A stretch of 47,333 nucleotides of DNA, taken from contig CAWFGE010000002.1 in the NCBI GenBank assembly GCA_963815195.1, forward strand, positions 1 through 47,333. Reading direction: 5' to 3'. Source of the DNA: an uncultured Planctomycetaceae bacterium (GTDB lineage Bacteria > Planctomycetota > Planctomycetia > Planctomycetales > Planctomycetaceae). Of the stretch, positions 11,959 to 47,333 are shown piece by piece. Each line of letters begins with the position of its first letter. Positions within the stretch are counted from its first letter, which is position 1. The notes under the pieces are model-generated. The model was not told the origin of the DNA. It worked only from the letters and a program-made list of their open reading frames with translations, and made no database searches. The position numbers were made by a program, and so were the translations under genes.

Positions 11959-12591
11959 ATGTCGATGGACAACGGGCCGGGGCTCGTGGAATTGCTCAAT
12001 CAGGCCAGGTCGGGAGACGATGCCGCCCGCGAGCGGTTGTTCGGCCTCTGCCGGGATTATGTGGGCATTGTGGCCCGCACGCAGGTGGGAAGCTGGCTGC
12101 AGGCCAAGGTCGATGCCTCGGATTTGGTCCAGCAGACGCTGCTCGACATGCACCGGGGCCTCGGGGAATTTCGCGGCGAGACCGAAGCCGAATGGCTCGC
12201 GTGGCTCCGGCAAATCTTGAACCACAATGCCGCCGATTACGTTCGCCGATACGCCGGCACGAAAAAACGCCGGGCCAGTCGCGAAATCCCGCTGGACCGG
12301 TTTTCGCCCGGCGGTTCCGAAGCCTGGCGGATCGATCCTCAAGACCCCGGCGAGTCGCCCAGCCAGTTGATTGTCCGCCGGGAGCGCGAACTGGAAGTCG
12401 CCCAGGCCCTCGCCCAGCTTCCGCAGGATTATCAAGACGTCATCGAACTCCGCAATCTGCAACGGCTCTCGTTCGAGGAGGTGGCCGAACGCATGGGCCG
12501 TTCCCGCGGGGCGGTGCAGATGCTGTGGATGCGGGCTTTGCGGAAACTCGAAGAAGTCCTGAAAAGGCAAACCGATGTCGAACCTGTTTGA
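11959..12591 (+). CDS. ECF RNA polymerase sigma factor, planctomycete type
   Basis: KVDASDLVQQTLL, WLRQIL, SPSQ, YQDVIELRNLQRLSFEEVAERMGRSRGAVQMLWMRAL. Confidence 0.92.
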   Translation: MSMDNGPGLVELLNQARSGDDAARERLFGLCRDYVGIVARTQVGSWLQAKVDASDLVQQTLLDMHRGLGEFRGETEAEWLAWLRQILNHNAADYVRRYAGTKKRRASREIPLDRFSPGGSEAWRIDPQDPGESPSQLIVRRERELEVAQALAQLPQDYQDVIELRNLQRLSFEEVAERMGRSRGAVQMLWMRALRKLEEVLKRQTDVEPV

Positions 12592-14341
12592 ATCCTCATC
12601 CGCCGAAACGCCGCCCCCGCCGGAGACGACCGAGACGCTTCCCGAAGCGGAACGGCGATTGTTCGCGCTGCTCGATGAATACGTGGAGCATTTGCATCAG
12701 GAAGACATCGATTCGCGGAGCGTGCTCATCGAACGCCATCCCGAACTCATGGGCCTCTTGCATTGTCTGGAATCGCTCGACAACCTCGCCATCCCCGCGC
12801 CGCTTTCTGAGGGTCGCGACGACAAGACGCCCTTCGTCGGCGATGACGGGGGCGACGGGGACTCCGCGAAAACGGTGCTCTGGGACGGTTTGCCCGCGGA
12901 CGATGAAGACTCCAAGGCGGAACCCAAACTGGGAGCTTATCCCACGAGCGCGGCGGAGTTCGGCAAGTACCAGTTGCTCGAAGAACTCGGCCGGGGCGGA
13001 ATGGGCGTGGTCTATCGCGCCTGGCAAGCCGACTTGCGGCGGCACGTGGCGGTCAAGATGATTCTGCACAGCCGATTGGCTTCGCAGGATGACGTGCGGC
13101 GGTTTTATATCGAAGCCCAGTCCGCAGGGGGCCTCAATCACGCGAACATCGTGCGGATTCACGAAGTCGGACAGGTCGGCGGCCAGCACTTTTTCACGAT
13201 GGAATACATCGACGGCGAAAACCTCGCCGACCGATTGAGGCGCAGCTCCTGCGGTCCCGACGAGGCGGCCCGGCTCGTCGCGGCGGTCGCCCGGGCGGTG
13301 CATTATCTGCATCAGCACGGCGTGATTCACCGCGACCTCAAGCCTTCGAACATTCTGCTCGACGGCGACGGCCAGCCGCACGTCACCGACTTCGGCCTCG
13401 CAAAACTCTTCGACGCCACCGACAGCGGCACGACGCAGTCCGGAACCATCGTCGGGACGCCGAGCTATATGTCCCCCGAACAAGCCGCGGGCCACACGTC
13501 GCAGGTTTCGCCGTTGTGCGATGTGTATAGCCTGGGAGCGATTCTGTACGAGCTGCTTTCCGGCCGGCCGCCGTTCCAGCGGGACACGCCCTTGGACACG
13601 CTGGTCGATGTGCTCGAAGGCGAACCCACGCTGCTCTCCAAGCAGAACCCCGCCATTCCCCGCGATCTGGAATTGATCTGCTTCAAATGCCTCGAAAAAG
13701 ATCCGGAAAGACGCTACGCCTCGGCCGAGGCGCTCGCGGAAGATTTGGAACGCTACCTCCGCGGGGAAGCCATCGAAGCCCGCCCGTCGGGGCTGTGGTC
13801 GAAGATGAAACGCTGGGCTAGAAGGGAACCGGCCCTGGTCTCCCGGCTCGCCGGTTTGGGGATCACGGCGACGATCGTGCAAATTCGGTATGTCTTCTCG
13901 ACGGACATCGAAGCCGCGTTTCATTACCAGATTATGGCGCTCTTCGGCATCTGCGCTTTGATGTCGTTTCTGTTCCAGCGCATGCTGCACAACGATTCGC
14001 TGGCCCAGCCCGCCCGCTTCGGTTGGGCGGCGTCCGATGTGATTATCCTCACCTGTTTGCTATACCTCTCCGACCCGCCCATCGGTGCGATCCTTATCGG
14101 CTATCCGCTGTTGATCGCCGCGGCGGGACTGTTCTTCCTCGTGCGATTGGTCTTGTTTACGACGGTGATTTCCTTGTTGTCGTTCGCCGTGTTGATCATG
14201 ATCGCCCCGCAAATCCGCGCGGAGCGGCCGCATTATCTGGTGATCTTCGCCAGCGTCCTCGCGGTGCACGGCCTGATCACCGCCCATCAGGTTTACCGCG
14301 TCCGCGCATTGAGCCGCTACTACGAACAACGCCGGATTTGA
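12575..14341 (+). CDS. Hanks-type Ser/Thr protein kinase with C-terminal membrane domain
   Basis: LGRGGMGVVY, VAVK, HRDLKPSN, DFG and GTPSYMSPE; several hydrophobic helices at the C-terminus; overlaps the sigma factor stop. Confidence 0.95.
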   Translation: MSNLFESSSAETPPPPETTETLPEAERRLFALLDEYVEHLHQEDIDSRSVLIERHPELMGLLHCLESLDNLAIPAPLSEGRDDKTPFVGDDGGDGDSAKTVLWDGLPADDEDSKAEPKLGAYPTSAAEFGKYQLLEELGRGGMGVVYRAWQADLRRHVAVKMILHSRLASQDDVRRFYIEAQSAGGLNHANIVRIHEVGQVGGQHFFTMEYIDGENLADRLRRSSCGPDEAARLVAAVARAVHYLHQHGVIHRDLKPSNILLDGDGQPHVTDFGLAKLFDATDSGTTQSGTIVGTPSYMSPEQAAGHTSQVSPLCDVYSLGAILYELLSGRPPFQRDTPLDTLVDVLEGEPTLLSKQNPAIPRDLELICFKCLEKDPERRYASAEALAEDLERYLRGEAIEARPSGLWSKMKRWARREPALVSRLAGLGITATIVQIRYVFSTDIEAAFHYQIMALFGICALMSFLFQRMLHNDSLAQPARFGWAASDVIILTCLLYLSDPPIGAILIGYPLLIAAAGLFFLVRLVLFTTVISLLSFAVLIMIAPQIRAERPHYLVIFASVLAVHGLITAHQVYRVRALSRYYEQRRI

Positions 14342-14354
14342 AACCGAACGGCAG

Positions 14355-14496
14355 TTTAACGCAAAGGCGCAAAGAGAAGACGCAAAGAGGCGGAAAGAAA
14401 AAGACAAAAAAGAAAGAATATAAGGGTGGTTGTGCCAGCAGGCAGCGTGCTTCCGATCCGTTTTTCCTTTGTGCCTCTTTGCGTCTTTGCGTTAAA
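14355..14496. repeat. Inverted repeat between convergent genes (ACGCAAAGGCGCAAAG type); may act as a bidirectional terminator
   Basis: TTTAACGCAAAGGCGCAAAGAG ... CTCTTTGCGTCTTTGCGTTAAA. Confidence 0.75.
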
Positions 14497-14506
14497 TCCA
14501 ACCGAC

Positions 14507-15916
14507 TCACGCCGTTTGATTCACCGTCGCTTGCCCCAGTTTTTGGGCAACGTCTTGAATGAACTCGTAAAGCAGTTCCAGCGAAGTGCGGGCTTCTTCG
14601 TCGGTGATGGTCATCGGCGGGCTGATGCGGAGGACTCTGTCGGCGAGCGGCCCCAAGAGGTGAATCCCGTCGCCACCTTCTTTGCCGAGGTAACAGCGTT
14701 CGACGATCGCGTTGGCGACTTCGCCAGGCGCGTGCTTTCCGACGGGGCCGCATTCGATCCCGAAGACGAGGCCTTCGCCGCGGACTTTGGTAATCACGCC
14801 GGTGTCCTTGAGCCGCTCCAAGCCGCCCGCAAACACCTCGAACAAACGCTCGCTTCGCGTGAGCACATCCGTCGTTTCAAACTCATCCAGCGTGGCAAGC
14901 ACCGCCGCACATGACAGCGGGTTCGCACTCCAGGTGTCGGAGGCTTCGCCGTATTTGAGGCTGGCCATCACATCGCCCCGGCCCACGACCGCCGACACCG
15001 GCACCCCGTTCCCCAGGCCTTTGCCCAGGCAGACCAGGTCCGGCTCGATGCCGTATTTCTCGAAGGCGTACATCTTCCCCGTGCGGCCGAAGTTGGATTG
15101 CACTTCATCCAGGATCAACAAGATGTCGTGCTCCCGGCAGAAGTTTTGAAGCAGCTGCAAATATTCGCTCGGCGGATGATAGCTGCCCCCGCCGCCCAGA
15201 TAGGGTTCGGTAATCAGGCAGTTGATCCGCGAGCCGAAGGCGTCCCAGACTTCTTTCAGCTCGGCCTCATACGGTGCCAACTCAAACGGATCCTCAAAGC
15301 AGCTGAGGTCGTCCACATCTTCGCGGGGGAAGCTGATGAACTTCACGCGCGGGTCGCGGTCGGGATCTTTTTCGCTGCCGGTGACGGCTCCCGCCAAACC
15401 TTTCTTGCCGTGAAAGCCGTACCGCGTGGCGAGGATGATGTCGCGGTCCCGATGCAAATGCAAACACGCCCACAGGGCCTTTTGGATGGCTTCCGAACCG
15501 GACGCGGCCCACATCACCGTGTCCAACCGCTGGCCGCCGGGACGCGCCTGAACGTTTTTGAGCAACCGCTCCACCGCTTTCGCTTCGACCTGGGTGAGGG
15601 CGTTATACGCGGTGAGGCTCACGGCTTCGAAATAGCCGTCGGCATCGCTTTCCAGATGCTCCGGCTTCCAGCCGAGGTACTCGGCCATCCGCTTCATCCA
15701 CCGCCGGGGGTTGTGCCCCAGGTTCGCCACCAGCACGCCGGAACTGTAATCGTAAAGCCGGCGGCCTTCGGGCGTCCAATGAAAACACCCCGCCGACTTC
15801 GCCAGCACCGCCTGGCTGGGCGTAAACGTCCGGAGAGCAAACGGCTCCTGCGTCGCAATCGTCCGCCGAATGGAGTTCGAGCGCTCTTCACCGGGAAATT
15901 GAATGGACGTTGTCAT
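14507..15916 (-). CDS. Class III PLP-dependent aminotransferase
   Basis: SGSEAIQKAL, GFHG, ITEP, ILDEVQSNFGRTG and PLP-lysine motif LGKGLGNGVP. Confidence 0.92.
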   Translation of the reverse strand: MTTSIQFPGEERSNSIRRTIATQEPFALRTFTPSQAVLAKSAGCFHWTPEGRRLYDYSSGVLVANLGHNPRRWMKRMAEYLGWKPEHLESDADGYFEAVSLTAYNALTQVEAKAVERLLKNVQARPGGQRLDTVMWAASGSEAIQKALWACLHLHRDRDIILATRYGFHGKKGLAGAVTGSEKDPDRDPRVKFISFPREDVDDLSCFEDPFELAPYEAELKEVWDAFGSRINCLITEPYLGGGGSYHPPSEYLQLLQNFCREHDILLILDEVQSNFGRTGKMYAFEKYGIEPDLVCLGKGLGNGVPVSAVVGRGDVMASLKYGEASDTWSANPLSCAAVLATLDEFETTDVLTRSERLFEVFAGGLERLKDTGVITKVRGEGLVFGIECGPVGKHAPGEVANAIVERCYLGKEGGDGIHLLGPLADRVLRISPPMTITDEEARTSLELLYEFIQDVAQKLGQATVNQTA

Positions 15917-43177: not shown

Positions 43178-44815
43178 TCAGTCTTTCGGGGCGCTGCCCC
43201 ACCAGTCGCGGTTGGGAGTGAAATTCGGTTCGAGATAACCCGCGTGTTGCTTTTCGAGGCGGGCTTTGCCTTGGGATTTCAGCGACTCCCAGCGGGCGGC
43301 CCGCTTGGCGGGGTCGAACTGGGGATCTTTTTTGGGAAACTTGGCGCCCGTCGCTTTGAGCCAGGCGTCGAGCCGGGTCCGGAACGCTTTCACGCGGTCG
43401 GGTTCTGTGGCGGCGAGGTCGCGTTGTTCTCCGGTGTCGGCCGTTAGGTGATAGAGTTCGTCCCGGCCGTCTTCGTGATAGTGGATCAACTTCCAACCGT
43501 CCTGGGTGATGATCGACGAGGGTTCGCCGCCTTGGTTTCCGTAATGGGGGTAATGCCAGAACAAGGGCCGATCGGGAATGGAGCCGCCCTTGAGCAAAGG
43601 CACGAGGCTCACGCCGTCGATGTCCTGCTCGCGCGGAACCGGGACGCTGGCGAGTTCGAGCAGCGTGGGATACCAGTCGATGCCGCTCACGGGCACGTCG
43701 CAGGTCGTGCCGGCTTTGGTGATGCTGGGGGCCTTGATGTAGAACGGTTCGCGGACGCCGCCCTCCCACTGCCGGCCTTTGCCGCCCCTGAGCGGGAGAT
43801 TGCTCGTCGAGAAGGAATCCCCGGACGACACGCCGCCGTTGTCGGACGTGAAACACACGATCGTGTTCTCCGCCAGCCCCAACTCGTCGAGTTTCTTGAG
43901 CACCATGCCGACGGCGTCGTCCATCGATTCGATCATCCCCGCGTAGATCGGGCAGTCTTGCACCTGGCGGACGGCGAGCCGGCGGTCAAACAGGAACCGC
44001 TCTTTCACCAGGCCCGCGTCCGCGGCTTTGTTGCGGTACTTCTTCCAAAGGCCGGGCGACGTTTGAATCGGACCATGCACCGAATAGAAGGACAAATACG
44101 CGAGAAACGGCTGGTCTTTGTGCGCCTCGATGAACTCGGCGGTTTCCCGGCCCAGGCGAATGGGCAGCGATTCGCCCGGCGGTCCCGGTTTGAGATTGGG
44201 ATTCTCCCAGGGCGAGAAATATCCGCCCCGCGGACTGCCCACGTCCCAGCCGCCTTTGTTGATTTCAAAACCGTGATCCGTCGGCCAAGAGCCTTTGCTC
44301 CCCATGTGCCATTTGCCGGCGAAAAAGGTTTTATAGCCCGCGTCGCGAAGGGCTTCCGCGAGCGTGATCTCGCTGGCCCGCAAGTTGTGCTCGTAATCCG
44401 CGGGCAGGTGGCTGTCTTGCCGGCCCGAGCTCCGCCAGCCTGCGCCCGAACGGTCGCCGATCCAGGTCGTGATGCCATGCTTCGTCGGATACTTGCCCGT
44501 GACAATGCTCGCCCGCGACGGGCTGCACACCTGGCACGCGGCATAACCCCGCGTGAACTTCATGCCTTCCCGGGCGATCCGGTCGATATTCGGGCTTTGG
44601 TAAAACGTGGAGCCTTCGTTGCTCAGATCGCTCCAGCCCAGATCGTCCGCAAGTATTAGTACAATATTAGGTACACGCTTATTATCCGCTGATACCCCTT
44701 TTTTGCAAGTGCCTATTGACAAAATGGCTGGTCCGAGGATAAGAATGAATGTAGCAAATTTGTGTAGTAAATGGGCAGGGAATCCATTCAAGGGAAAACG
44801 TCGCGAGAAGAACAT
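43178..44815 (-). CDS. Formylglycine-dependent (S1) sulfatase with an AT-rich 5' end
   Basis: PNIVLILADDLGWSD, CSPSRASIVTG, GKWH, TSDNGG, GGKG and EGGVR; SD GGGAGG a few nt before the ATG at 44815. Confidence 0.95.
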   Translation of the reverse strand: MFFSRRFPLNGFPAHLLHKFATFILILGPAILSIGTCKKGVSADNKRVPNIVLILADDLGWSDLSNEGSTFYQSPNIDRIAREGMKFTRGYAACQVCSPSRASIVTGKYPTKHGITTWIGDRSGAGWRSSGRQDSHLPADYEHNLRASEITLAEALRDAGYKTFFAGKWHMGSKGSWPTDHGFEINKGGWDVGSPRGGYFSPWENPNLKPGPPGESLPIRLGRETAEFIEAHKDQPFLAYLSFYSVHGPIQTSPGLWKKYRNKAADAGLVKERFLFDRRLAVRQVQDCPIYAGMIESMDDAVGMVLKKLDELGLAENTIVCFTSDNGGVSSGDSFSTSNLPLRGGKGRQWEGGVREPFYIKAPSITKAGTTCDVPVSGIDWYPTLLELASVPVPREQDIDGVSLVPLLKGGSIPDRPLFWHYPHYGNQGGEPSSIITQDGWKLIHYHEDGRDELYHLTADTGEQRDLAATEPDRVKAFRTRLDAWLKATGAKFPKKDPQFDPAKRAARWESLKSQGKARLEKQHAGYLEPNFTPNRDWWGSAPKD

Positions 44816-44937
44816 GAGCTGGCCTCCCAAAGGGGCTGATGCTGGCATATCGAAAACTCCGCTTTAGTATCAATCGCGCCGGGCGGCGGGTCAATGGCGG
44901 CGATACGGCGCAGAGCACGGAAAGGACGGAAAGGACG

Positions 44938-46236
44938 ATGGGAAGAAAATCCAAAAAACGCAGGCAGTCGCACGGGTCCGCGTGGCATTGGAAACAAACT
45001 GACTGTTGGTATTACACCCGACCCGGCACGAAACAACGCGTGCCGCTGTTCGATGAGCAAGGGGAACGAATCCGGGGCAAGGAAAATCGGCAAGCCGCGG
45101 AGATCGCACTGGCTCGGGAAAAATTGACCTGGGAACGGGAACCCGCAGGCGGAGATGCCGGGGGCCAATGGATCGTGGCCCGCGTTTGTTCCGAGTATCT
45201 GGAGTATTGCGAGCGGGGATTGGCGAAAGGCACGATCAGCCTGGGGCATCGAAATAACTCCGCCGCCTGGCTGAACGATTTGTGCGGATACTGCGGAGCC
45301 CTTCCGGTGGCTCAGCTCAAGAAGGGGCACGTTCAAAAGTGGTTGGATAACCATCCGACCTGGCGGAGCCCTGCCACGCGCTCCGGGGTGATTGCCATTG
45401 TCTTGGCAGCGTTCAATCGGGCTGCCGAGATGTTTGGGATTCCGAATCCGATCAAAGGATTGAAGAAACCCAAGGCGGAACCGCGATTGGCATCCCTGAC
45501 GCCGGAAGAGGAACAGGCGATCTATGAAGCCACCGAACCCCGTTTTAAGGAGTTCCTGTTCGCCAGCATCCATACCGGCCTGCGACCGTTTTGCGAGTTG
45601 GCGAAAATGACAGCGGATGACGTGGAAGAGACGCCGCGGGGGATGATGTGGCGGGTCTATTCGTCCAAGACCAAAAAGACACGGAAGATCCCCGTGCGGC
45701 CGGAGGTGGCCGAGTTGACGCGAACTTTGATGGAAACGGCCCCCAAGGGCTCGGGATTGCCCCTCCTTCGGAACACCCAAGGCAATCCTTGGAAGCGGAC
45801 CACCGGCGTGGTGCGGTTTATCGCGATCAAAAAGAAGTTGGGCTGGGACCAGGATCCCATTAAGGGGAAGTATTCCTGTTACACCTGCCGCCATACCTTT
45901 GCTCATCGGATGCTTTCCGGGTATTGGACGGACGGAGTGGGTTGCTCCATCGAAACCCTGGCGGAACTCATCGGCGATACGCCGAAGGTGGCTTTTGAGC
46001 ATTACGGCAGGGAGTGGGGCCAGCATTATCAGGATCCGCTCTGGAACGCCATCGGGGAAGCCCGCGACGGAGACGCCAAAGCCGAGTCCAATGCAGCCGA
46101 CGAAAAAACCTCGGCGAAAAGCCGCTCGAAATCCGGCCGGCCGCACGATAAAAAATCCCGCTCGGCCTCGAAGTCGGCGACTCAGAAAAAGCAAAAGCGA
46201 GCCGCCTCACCCCCAGGGAGAAAGTCGAAGGCATGA
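44938..46236 (+). CDS. Tyrosine recombinase/integrase 1
   Basis: TGLRPFCELA (catalytic Arg), SSKTKK, YTCRHTFA and LIGDTPKVAFEHY (catalytic Tyr); N-terminal domain AWHWKQTDCWYY; RBS AAGGA. Confidence 0.92.
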   Translation: MGRKSKKRRQSHGSAWHWKQTDCWYYTRPGTKQRVPLFDEQGERIRGKENRQAAEIALAREKLTWEREPAGGDAGGQWIVARVCSEYLEYCERGLAKGTISLGHRNNSAAWLNDLCGYCGALPVAQLKKGHVQKWLDNHPTWRSPATRSGVIAIVLAAFNRAAEMFGIPNPIKGLKKPKAEPRLASLTPEEEQAIYEATEPRFKEFLFASIHTGLRPFCELAKMTADDVEETPRGMMWRVYSSKTKKTRKIPVRPEVAELTRTLMETAPKGSGLPLLRNTQGNPWKRTTGVVRFIAIKKKLGWDQDPIKGKYSCYTCRHTFAHRMLSGYWTDGVGCSIETLAELIGDTPKVAFEHYGREWGQHYQDPLWNAIGEARDGDAKAESNAADEKTSAKSRSKSGRPHDKKSRSASKSATQKKQKRAASPPGRKSKA

Positions 46237-47333
46237 CAAACAACAACACGGGCCGTCAACGGCGATCTCGCGGGAAAGCCTGGTATTGGAAACAGACCGA
46301 CAGCTGGTATTTCACTCCACCGGGAACCAAAGGCCGCGTGCGGCTGTATGATGAAGCGGGGGATCCGATCCGGGGCAAGGAAAATCGGCCCGCCGCGGAA
46401 CTGGCTCTGGCTCGCGTGAAAGCCGCGGGCAACTGGCGCCCCTCCGCGGAACAGGCCAGCGAAGACCAGTGGGTCGTGGCGAAAGTGTGTTCACATTTCA
46501 TCGATTATTGTGAACAGCGAGCGGCCAAGGAAATGATTCGAATGGAATACCATGAAGAGGTCGTGCGTTATCTGAACGATTTCTGTGGCTACTGTGGGGC
46601 GCTGCCGGTGAATGAGTTACGAAAAGGGCACGTGCAGCATTGGGTCGAAAGCCGCTCCACTTGGAAATCCCCGGTCACGAAGCGAAATGCAATGACGATC
46701 GTGTTGGGCACCTTCAATCATGCTCAGGATATGTACGACGTGCCGAACCCGCTGACGGGGCTCAAAAAGCCGCCGCAAAAACCGCGGTTGCAATCCATTG
46801 ATCCTGAGGAAGAGGCCCTCCTCTATTCCGCGACGGATGAGGCATTCGCCAATTTTCTCTTTGCCGCAATTCAGACGGGCCTGCGGCCGTTTTGCGAATT
46901 GGCACGTTTGACGGTCGCAGATGTGGAGGAAACCGAGCGAGGGATGATGTGGCGGGTTTACTCTTCGAAGACCAAGAAGACGCGAAAAATTCCGGTGCGA
47001 TCGGAGGTCGCGGAATTGACTCGGGATTTGATTTCCCCGACCGCGGGAGAGTCCGGGGCCGTTGTCTTTCGCAATCCGCAGGGCCGCCCTGGAAGAAAGT
47101 CACCGGCGGCGCCCGTTTTCGGAAGATGAAACGCGAACTCGGCTGGGATCAAGAACCCGCCGCGGAAAAATTACTCCTGCTACACCTGCCGGCACACGTT
47201 TGCTCACCGCATGCTGGCTGGTTTTTGGAACGAGGGAGTGGGATGCTCCATCGAAACGCTCGCCGAGTTGATGGGCGACACCCCGAAAGTGGCCTTCGAT
47301 CATTACGGCCGCGAATGGGGCCAGCATTACCAG
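46233..47333 (+). CDS. Tyrosine recombinase/integrase 2, paralog of recombinase 1; compensating -1/+1 indels near 47087 and 47160; truncated by the window end
   Basis: ATGA overlap with gene 1; TGLRPFCELA and GMMWRVYSSKTKKTRKIPVR; YSCYTCRHTFAHRML...LMGDTPKVAFDHYGREWGQHYQ resumes in the original frame after the TGA at 47127-47129. Confidence 0.88.

What the first reader, a model, noticed from the sequence alone, without database searches (positions are those of the whole stretch)
44600..47333. Candidate sulfatase-targeting integrative element that supplies a replacement 5' end for its target gene
Seen: the sulfatase body is about 62% GC (hand count over 44521-44650), but 44651-44800 is about 39% GC. 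The switch falls exactly inside the conserved motif. KRVPNIVLIL uses host-atypical codons (AAG CGT GTA CCT AAT ATT GTA CTA ATA CTT), and ADDLGWSD returns to host-type codons (GCG GAC GAT CTG GGC TGG). The AT-rich part stays in frame and provides a hydrophobic signal-like segment, an ATG (44815) and a GGGAGG Shine-Dalgarno. Two tyrosine recombinases start 123 nt away on the other strand. Established: some integrative elements insert in a gene's 5' end and restore it with their own N-terminus (SXT/R391 in prfC, dusA-associated integrases), and planctomycetes carry large sulfatase families sharing the DDLG motif. Inference: this element recombines at the DDLG-coding sequence, giving it many possible target sites without destroying the enzyme, and may change its expression or export. 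An alternative is a shufflon-like system that swaps sulfatase N-termini. I know of no description of such a system.
Basis: partly seen in the sequence, partly recalled or inferred. Interest (0 to 1): 0.9.

Follow-up and report, generated by a model that had tools for sequence, protein, structure and literature searches.

The report
Mobile element that retargets sulfatase genes
A family of mobile DNA elements in planctomycete bacteria inserts at the sequence coding for a conserved catalytic motif of sulfatase genes and gives the cut gene a new promoter, start codon and export leader, so one element type can land in many different sulfatase genes without destroying them.

Summary
At window 44651 the sulfatase gene switches from 63% GC (GC3 0.80) to 40% GC (GC3 0.35), exactly at the codons Leu|Ala-Asp-Asp. 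The AT-rich 55-codon leader, a 122-nt spacer and two tandem tyrosine recombinases form a repeat. It is 99.3-99.6% identical at three contig ends of this genome, and each copy is fused in frame to a different sulfatase (C2 and C25 bodies 30% identical). A fourth, decayed copy has lost the recombinases.

Of 65 related loci with enough upstream DNA, 63 have a sulfatase starting divergently within 900 nt of the recombinase. Recombinases at least 90% identical sit on sulfatase bodies with a median identity of 30%.

In Gimesia I found the full set of sites:
- an empty site in one genome;
- attL, the element leader joined to the sulfatase body;
- attR, the native 5' fragment ending ...PNIIYILADD-KN-stop next to AT-rich element DNA.

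attL and attR share the core CTTGCGGACGATA, and CTTGCGGACGAT stands at window 44642-44653.

The window is a whole contig that ends inside recombinase 2, so its own second junction cannot be read. Effects on expression and export are inferred. Five literature searches found no description.

The parts
43178..44641 (-). Host-derived sulfatase body, from the residue after Asp-Asp to the stop codon. It is Cys-type (CSPSR present).
   Evidence: Pfam Sulfatase 6e-51. GC 0.63, GC3 0.80. The sequence is unique to this contig, and the repeat starts at 44621-44637.
44642..44653 (-). attL core and crossover zone: CTT GCG GAC GAT, coding Leu-Ala-Asp-Asp of the sulfatase motif.
   Evidence: The four junctions of this genome diverge here. 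The same 12 nt lie within the 13-nt core shared by attL and attR in Gimesia.
44654..44815 (-). Element-borne leader of 54 codons, MFFSRRFPLNGFPAHLLHKFATFILILGPAILSIGTCKKGVSADNKRVPNIVLI. It looks like a signal peptide and is AT-rich.
   Evidence: Identical leader on three different sulfatases. The conserved LLH(R/K)xxT...PNIVLILADD leader is present in 69 of 73 loci. GC 0.40.
44816..44937 (.). Divergent spacer. It holds GGGAGG (44823-44828, minus strand) 7 nt before the leader ATG and a sigma-70-like match, TTGACC-17-GATACT (44894..44866, minus strand).
   Evidence: Sequence. Promoter scan found 2 matches against 0.3 expected in shuffles; this is a consensus match only.
44938..46236 (+). Tyrosine recombinase 1 (432 aa).
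   Evidence: PF00589 32.0 bits. About 50% identical homologs in other genera, always beside a sulfatase.
46233..47333 (+). Tyrosine recombinase 2, 56% identical to recombinase 1 over the aligned 289 residues. In this copy it is broken by two compensating 1-base indels near 47086 and 47160, and the contig end cuts it a few codons before its expected stop.
   Evidence: The intact copies are on C25 and C8. Relatives end ...EPLWAAIGVG-stop or ...EPLWSAIGVG-stop.

Best explanation
The window ends in the left arm (attL) of a site-specific integrative element. In the free form, the element's attachment site lies inside a short leader reading frame that ends ...VPNIVLIL-ADD. The tyrosine recombinase or recombinases recombine this site with the Leu-Ala-Asp-Asp coding sequence of a chromosomal sulfatase gene. 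After insertion the sulfatase body is read from the element's own promoter, ribosome-binding site, start codon and signal-peptide-like leader. The native promoter and signal peptide are left at the far end of the element as a stub that stops two codons after Asp-Asp. The Asp-Asp motif is shared by the whole sulfatase family (63 motif-bearing starts in this genome), so one element lineage has dozens of possible sites and reaches several copies per genome. Shown: the junction anatomy, the multi-copy state, the uncoupling of element and sulfatase body, and the attB/attL/attR set in relatives. Inferred: which recombinase does what, that the leader exports the enzyme, and that expression changes.
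For: (a) Window 44621-47333 recurs at C25:2729..17 (99.4%) and C8:658582..661278 (99.3%), with an 84% partial copy at C13. The four junctions share everything on the leader side and diverge at the codons before and after Asp-Asp.
(b) The three leader-fused proteins have different bodies; C2 and C25 bodies are 30% identical while their recombinases are 100% identical.
(c) Of 65 related loci with at least 1200 nt upstream, 63 have a divergent sulfatase start within 900 nt. Of 73 sites, 69 carry the leader motif, and in all 69 the leader GC (0.32-0.54) is below the body GC (0.52-0.70).
(d) In 21 pairs with recombinase identity of at least 90%, median body identity is 29.9% and leader identity 86%.
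(e) The Gimesia site set is. attB (G080)..ATTTTGGCCGATGACATGGGTTACGG. attL (G075): leader..ATACTTGCGGACGATATGGGTTACGG. attR (G075): native..ATCCTTGCGGACGATAAGAATTAAG. The displaced frame ends PNIIYILADDKN-stop in G075 and G076.
(f) A second, independent insertion: G078 carries the same element lineage (recombinase 98.9% identical) in another sulfatase. The 94%-identical ortholog in G077 is uninterrupted and has an ordinary signal peptide. In G078 the native 5' part sits at the start of another contig.
(g) Among the 69 sites whose leader-to-Asp-Asp frame matched the search motif, the body beyond Asp-Asp reads on for at least 405 aa in 65; the exceptions are L055, L094, the G000 C8 copy and the locus pair L037/L038/L039, which count once each.
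(h) Remnants that keep the leader but have lost the recombinases (G000 C13, G008, G036:C49) show that the fusion outlives the element.
Against: The second junction of this window's own copy cannot be seen, because the contig ends in recombinase 2 and no contig continues it. In G041, three fully assembled copies show no displaced sulfatase 5' fragment within 57 kb (copies B and C) or 21 kb (copy A) to the right of the junction. Their homology ends at a conserved TTTTTAGCTATCCGG beside unrelated genes. In G017 the right end lies in a ThiF-like gene next to a DUF1501 gene, again without a fragment. The exchange point is not strictly fixed: one locus (L095) switches about 15 nt earlier than its near-identical relatives. 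The 'empty-site' ortholog in G080 has an N-terminus (RLHRFATLCLILI) that faintly resembles the leader, so it may itself be an old remnant. No excised circle, no transcript and no activity have been observed.
Confidence: 0.85

Rival explanations
1. Recombinase-driven swapping of 5' ends between sulfatase genes on one chromosome (shufflon-like, or by inversion), so that no truncated stub is ever made.
For: No displaced stub was found beside the three complete G041 copies or in G017. The exchange point varies a little within the conserved motif. Synteny around the target sulfatases is poor.
Against: Gimesia shows a plain insertion with a stub at attR. There are no inverted repeats in 44600-44960. 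No alternative leader cassettes were seen. In G078 the native 5' part is cut off from the body, as an insertion predicts.
Confidence: 0.07
2. An integron-like platform. The element stays put and captures promoterless sulfatase bodies behind its promoter and leader.
For: The geometry is that of an integron: the recombinase gene is divergent from a promoter that reads into the captured gene.
Against: The sulfatase bodies lie in their native chromosomal context. Orthologs at 79-94% DNA identity occur without the element in sister genomes. There is one body per platform and no array. The window's left flank is unique DNA.
Confidence: 0.03
3. The sulfatase is fixed cargo or a conserved neighbour of the recombinases, and the AT-rich start is an ordinary feature of the gene (translation-initiation bias) or an assembly chimera.
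For: Recombinase and sulfatase are always adjacent.
Against: Sulfatase bodies differ (30% identity) where recombinases are identical. The 58 native sulfatases of the same genome show no such GC drop. The same junction occurs four times here and in 69 sites elsewhere.
Confidence: 0.02

Closest known systems
Genomic islands and prophages with DusA-specific integrases, inserted in the 5' end of dusA (PMC4482086; I saw only the title and the start of the abstract in a search listing)
   Same: A tyrosine-recombinase element inserted inside the 5' coding end of a protein gene, with the integrase gene next to the junction.
   Different: There the target is one single-copy gene at one site. Here it is a motif shared by a family of dozens of paralogs, so there are several copies per genome. 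Here the replaced part includes a signal-peptide-like leader. The recombinases match no curated family.
SXT/R391 conjugative elements inserted in prfC
   Same: The element supplies a new 5' end and promoter, so the interrupted gene stays functional.
   Different: A single target gene and a single integrase. No test was made here.
Integrons (recalled)
   Same: A recombinase gene divergent from a promoter that drives the adjoining gene.
   Different: No cassettes, no attC sites and no arrays. Here the element moves, not the gene.
Tandem tyrosine-recombinase modules such as XerC/XerD pairs, the 'BIM' and 'RIT' modules, and the strand-biased circularizing elements of Vibrio with intA and intB (PMC9345347; title and start of abstract seen only in the listing; the rest recalled)
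   Same: Two paralogous tyrosine recombinases encoded side by side (56% identical here).
   Different: No sequence membership was shown. A single-recombinase branch of this family carries the same leader and has the same target.

Membership tests
Tyrosine recombinase superfamily (PF00589) | Match to the catalytic-domain profile above the curated cut-off | tested here: met
   32.0 and 27.8 bits against a cut-off of 27.1; 34.3 and 48.1 bits for the G041 pair.
Tyrosine recombinase superfamily (PF00589) | Conserved catalytic Arg, Arg and Tyr residues | tested here: inconclusive
   R216, R318 and Y356 are invariant in the five-sequence alignment A1. Assigning them catalytic roles is by recalled analogy with XerD. 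No structure was made.
Named recombinase families (XerC/D, XerA, integron integrase) | Score above the NCBIfam cut-off | tested here: not met
   Best match is XerA_Arch at 27.4 bits against a cut-off of 220. The PDB search gave only one weak hit, E 0.018.
Integrative elements that insert in a gene's 5' end and restore it | Junction inside the 5' coding region, with the reading frame continued by element DNA | tested here: met
   (69 of 73 sites).
Integrative elements that insert in a gene's 5' end and restore it | attL and attR share a core, the displaced native 5' fragment lies at the far end, and an empty site exists in relatives | tested here: met
   Met in Gimesia G075 and G076 against G080, and partly in G078 against G077. 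Not testable for the window's own copy. Not found in G041 or G017.
Integrative elements that insert in a gene's 5' end and restore it | One specific single-copy target gene | tested here: not met
   Targets are unrelated sulfatase paralogs: 30% median identity between targets of near-identical elements.
Integron | Mobile cassettes captured at attI, usually in arrays | tested here: not met
   The bodies are orthologous chromosomal genes that are present without the element in sister genomes. There is one body per element.
Shufflon or invertible-segment system | Inverted recombination sites flanking alternative coding segments | tested here: not met
   No inverted repeats in 44600-44960 and no alternative segments seen. 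Only this one region was scanned.
Type I sulfatase (PF00884), Cys-type | Sulfatase domain, N-terminal Asp-Asp metal site and C-x-P-x-R | tested here: met
   Pfam 6e-51. ADDLG and CSPSR are visible in the translation. The roles of these residues are recalled.

The most novel reading that the evidence does not exclude
The element is more than a harmless lodger. By swapping promoter and export leader on whichever sulfatase it enters, and by leaving leader-fused genes behind after the recombinases decay (G000 C13, G008, G036:C49, and perhaps G080 and G046), it may act as a roving rewiring device for the large planctomycete sulfatase repertoire. Its many homologous sites may also be a source of the chromosome rearrangements typical of the phylum.
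Probability: 0.25. Interest if true: 0.9.

Novelty: new variant of a known kind. Interest (0 to 1): 0.78.

Why it matters
Site-specific integrative elements normally depend on one conserved site per genome. This family uses the DNA that codes for a catalytic motif of a gene family with dozens of members per genome. That gives it many landing sites and several copies per cell, and it keeps each hit gene alive with a replacement promoter, start codon and leader. The finding explains odd AT-rich N-termini of planctomycete sulfatases. It warns annotators that those N-termini are foreign. It offers a natural recombinase-and-site pair aimed at a protein motif. And it raises a testable question: do mobile elements reshape expression and export of polysaccharide-degrading enzymes in these bacteria?

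Tried and rejected
1. Continuation of the window. No contig overlaps the last 12-20 nt. Three other contig ends (C14 right, C19 right, C21 left) share a 2.3-3.4 kb repeat with a large serine recombinase. Its proteins have no homolog in any related locus, and it abuts a separate 2.5-kb serine-recombinase element in C18 and C16. Reading recombinase 2 across C25 end plus C21 start gives an open but unconvincing tail. The link is not shown.

2. Motif searches for displaced 5' stubs in this genome gave none that are convincing. The output was cut.

3. Stubs downstream of the recombinases. None in 53 of the 54 loci with at least 600 nt downstream; the one hit, in L041, is a full gene.

4. G041 right ends and G017 have no stub.

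5. Synteny route in G041. The neighbour gene of the G045 ortholog lies 264 kb away, and there is no stub beside it.

6. Pattern search for the Gimesia right end (GCNGAYGAYAAGAATTAAG, up to 2 mismatches) in five genomes. It gave only chance hits in secretin-like genes, about as many as the control.

7. A homolog of the Gimesia right-end recombinase in this genome was not found with this query.

8. Public reads. Only short, low-depth contigs of one study were available. They showed no joints, and loose ends at 44633-44676 that fit other sulfatases or elements.

9. Viral contigs hold no relative.

10. The one metagenome contig with the 24-mer (L141) is a 74%-identical relative. Its recombinase 2 is followed by a complete, ordinary sulfatase, which says nothing about attR.

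11. Backbone genes of the G041 island occur in this genome only at C15:274-286 kb, with fragments at the C10 and C11 ends, and are not linked to the three copies.
Full report
**The observation**

The window is an entire 47,333-base contig (C2) of a 25-contig, 8.87-Mb, roughly 60% GC genome. Pfam families typical of planctomycetes (PSD1, PSCyt2, DUF1501, DUF1559) flank the related loci.

The sulfatase reading frame (43178-44815, minus strand; Pfam Sulfatase 6e-51) changes composition abruptly. In 100-nt windows, GC is 0.59-0.71 up to 44649 and 0.39-0.40 across 44650-44799. The 55 leader codons have GC 0.40 and GC3 0.35; the body has 0.63 and 0.80. The switch lies between CTT (Leu, 44651-44653) and GCG GAC GAT (Ala-Asp-Asp, 44642-44650).

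This is not chance. Only 285 of 177,244 150-nt windows of the genome are at or below 40% GC. None of 58 native sulfatase starts in the same genome has GC at or below 0.45 in the 129 nt before Asp-Asp; the median is 0.57 and the minimum 0.47.

**The thing is a repeat fused to different genes**

Window 44621-47333 recurs at 99.4% on C25 (2729..17) and at 99.3% on C8 (658582..661278). Both copies are at contig ends. An 84% partial copy lies on C13. Aligned, the four sites are alike through the whole AT-rich part and lose likeness at the Asp-Asp codons.

The three full copies encode the same 55-residue leader, MFFSRRFPLNGFPAHLLHKFATFILILGPAILSIGTCKKGVSADNKRVPNIVLIL, on three different sulfatases. 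The C2 and C25 bodies are 30% identical while their recombinases are 100% identical. The C8 body is frameshifted after about 130 residues. At C13 only the leader, the spacer and about 30 nt of recombinase 1 remain.

Recombinase 2 is intact on C25 and C8. In the window it carries a 1-base deletion near 47086 and a 1-base insertion near 47160. All three contigs stop within 16 nt of each other, a few codons before the expected stop; relatives end ...EPLWAAIGVG-stop.

**The association is general**

Homologs of recombinase 1 at about 50% identity in four other genera each lie 270-300 nt from a divergent sulfatase with a related leader. Recombinase remnants lie beside such sulfatases in two more genomes.

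A scan of one genome per species gave 152 relatives, of which the tool kept 75 distinct loci. All are from planctomycete-type genomes except two bins labelled otherwise. Ten of the 75 lacked 1200 nt upstream and were set aside. Of the other 65, 63 have a sulfatase start within 900 nt on the opposite strand; L049 and L098 do not.

I then took those 65 together with the four sites of this genome and four earlier loci, 73 sites in all. One of the earlier loci, L013, is the same contig as L089. Of the 73, 69 carry the motif LLH(R/K)xxT...(V/R)PNIVLILADD in frame. Two of the four misses, L057 and L059, show the leader and were missed only by the pattern. In all 69 the leader is less GC-rich than the body.

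Among 57 loci with full-length genes, the 21 pairs whose recombinases are at least 90% identical have sulfatase bodies with median identity 29.9% (range 24-93%) and leaders with median identity 86%. Only three orthologous Gimesia loci account for the high values. The recombinase-plus-leader unit therefore moves between unrelated sulfatase genes and always joins them at the same motif.

**The crossover**

Pairs of near-identical elements stay identical up to the codon before Asp-Asp and often differ in that very codon: GCG against GTC in this genome, GTC against GCT in G041, ATC against ATG in L043/L044. They agree on GACGAY, which every sulfatase has, and then diverge. One locus (L095) switches about 15 nt earlier. 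Third codon positions of the leader are less conserved than first and second positions (0.62-0.72 against 0.77-0.88). So the leader is under protein-level constraint as well as any DNA-level one.

**The second junction**

It cannot be read in this genome. I looked in relatives instead.

In Gimesia, the sulfatase that carries the element in G075, G076 and G077 has orthologs at 88-89% DNA identity in G080, G087 and G092, and their match stops at the junction. In G080 the gene is uninterrupted, with no recombinase in the next 12 kb.

The 5' region of that gene matches a second place in G075 (contig C25), from 6 nt before Asp-Asp outward. There a reading frame, MQTVTYFSQRQ...AAEKNSDPNIIYILADDKN-stop, runs into AT-rich DNA, and a further split integrase-like gene follows.

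Aligned:
- attB: ..ATCTACATTTTGGCCGATGACATGGGTTACGG
- attL: ..GTATTTATACTTGCGGACGATATGGGTTACGG
- attR: ..ATCTATATCCTTGCGGACGATAAGAATTAAGATTTTGC

attL and attR share CTTGCGGACGATA. The first 12 of those bases are the window's 44642-44653. G076 shows the same attR beside katG, the neighbour seen in G080.

A second, independent event also fits. G078 has the same element lineage (recombinase 98.9% identical) in another sulfatase. The 94%-identical ortholog in G077 is whole and has an ordinary signal peptide. In G078 the native 5' part sits at the very start of another contig, reading outward.

**What does not fit yet**

In G041, three complete copies share a 3.1-kb left module, a variable middle and a 13-kb backbone. 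The middle carries, for example, a 1562-aa STAND/HEAT protein. The backbone carries a large serine recombinase, an AAA ATPase and a JAB-domain protein. No sulfatase 5' stub lies within 57 kb (copies B and C) or 21 kb (copy A) to the right. The copies end at a conserved TTTTTAGCTATCCGG. In G017 the right end abuts a DUF1501 gene. Either these islands are longer or rearranged, or stubs get lost. I could not decide which.

**How it most likely works**

Shown: an element with its attachment site inside a leader frame; recombination at the Leu-Ala-Asp-Asp codons; an in-frame fusion that keeps the enzyme from Asp-Asp onward; a stub at the other end; many alternative targets; and persistence of the fusion after the recombinases decay.

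Inferred: the spacer holds the promoter (a sigma-70-like match at 44894..44866). The leader, with its Arg-Arg n-region and hydrophobic core, acts as a signal peptide. The two paralogous recombinases (56% identical) may each bind one half-site, as XerC and XerD do (recalled). A single-recombinase branch has the same leader and the same target.

**Comparison and novelty**

The principle, an integrase element that sits in a gene's 5' end and restores it, is known from dusA islands (PMC4482086, listing only) and from SXT/R391 in prfC (recalled). What is new:
- The target is a motif of a large paralogous family, not one gene.
- That gives a multi-copy state in one genome.
- The element supplies an export leader.
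- The recombinases match no curated family.

Five full-text searches and passages of one preprint on planctomycete plasmids gave no description of such an element. Subscription journals are not covered by that library.

It adds context and no support.

Noticed in passing
window 47086 and 47160: Recombinase 2 of this copy has a 1-base deletion and a 1-base insertion 74 nt apart relative to the C25 and C8 copies. The frame is lost for about 25 codons and a stop appears at 47129. Short public contigs show the intact form, but they may come from the other copies.
   Followed up: partly
G000 C8:~658200-658760 (minus strand): The sulfatase fused to the C8 copy of the element is frameshifted after about 130 residues, so it is probably a pseudogene.
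   Followed up: no
G000 C14 right end, C19 right end, C21 left end; C18:29475-30640; C16:86878-88511: A 2.3-3.4 kb repeat with a large serine recombinase split into 232-aa and 427-aa frames. It ends three contigs at the same base, and in C18 and C16 it abuts a 2.5-kb, 8-copy serine-recombinase element.
   Followed up: partly
G000 C1:38-1571, C18:30-5497, C3:7-2135: Long tandem arrays at three contig ends, with copies offset by about 70 nt and 73-78% alike.
   Followed up: no
L102:7568-12256 and 12516-14612 (G041 copy B): The variable middle of the island carries a 1562-aa STAND-NTPase/HEAT protein and an NPCBM-domain protein. Copy C has different DNA there.
   Followed up: no
L104:7850-7900; L105, L118 and L119 equivalents: Four G041 islands end in the invariant TTTTTAGCTATC(C/A)GG after a GC-rich hairpin. 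In three of them this sequence supplies the last two codons and the stop of a small lipoprotein-like gene, or its remnant, in the flank.
   Followed up: partly
L128:1-1053 (G080) and L110:1458-2900 (G046): 'Empty-site' sulfatase orthologs have N-termini that faintly recall the element leader (RLHRFATLCLILI; RFLLGKLLH). They may be relics of older insertions.
   Followed up: no
L141:1150-2763: In a metagenome relative, a complete sulfatase with an ordinary signal peptide lies 600 nt after recombinase 2, with its 3' end toward the element.
   Followed up: no
G000 C15:274185-286100: A single-copy set of homologs of the G041 island backbone (large serine recombinase, AAA ATPase, JAB-domain protein), with no recombinase 1 or 2 nearby.
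   Followed up: no
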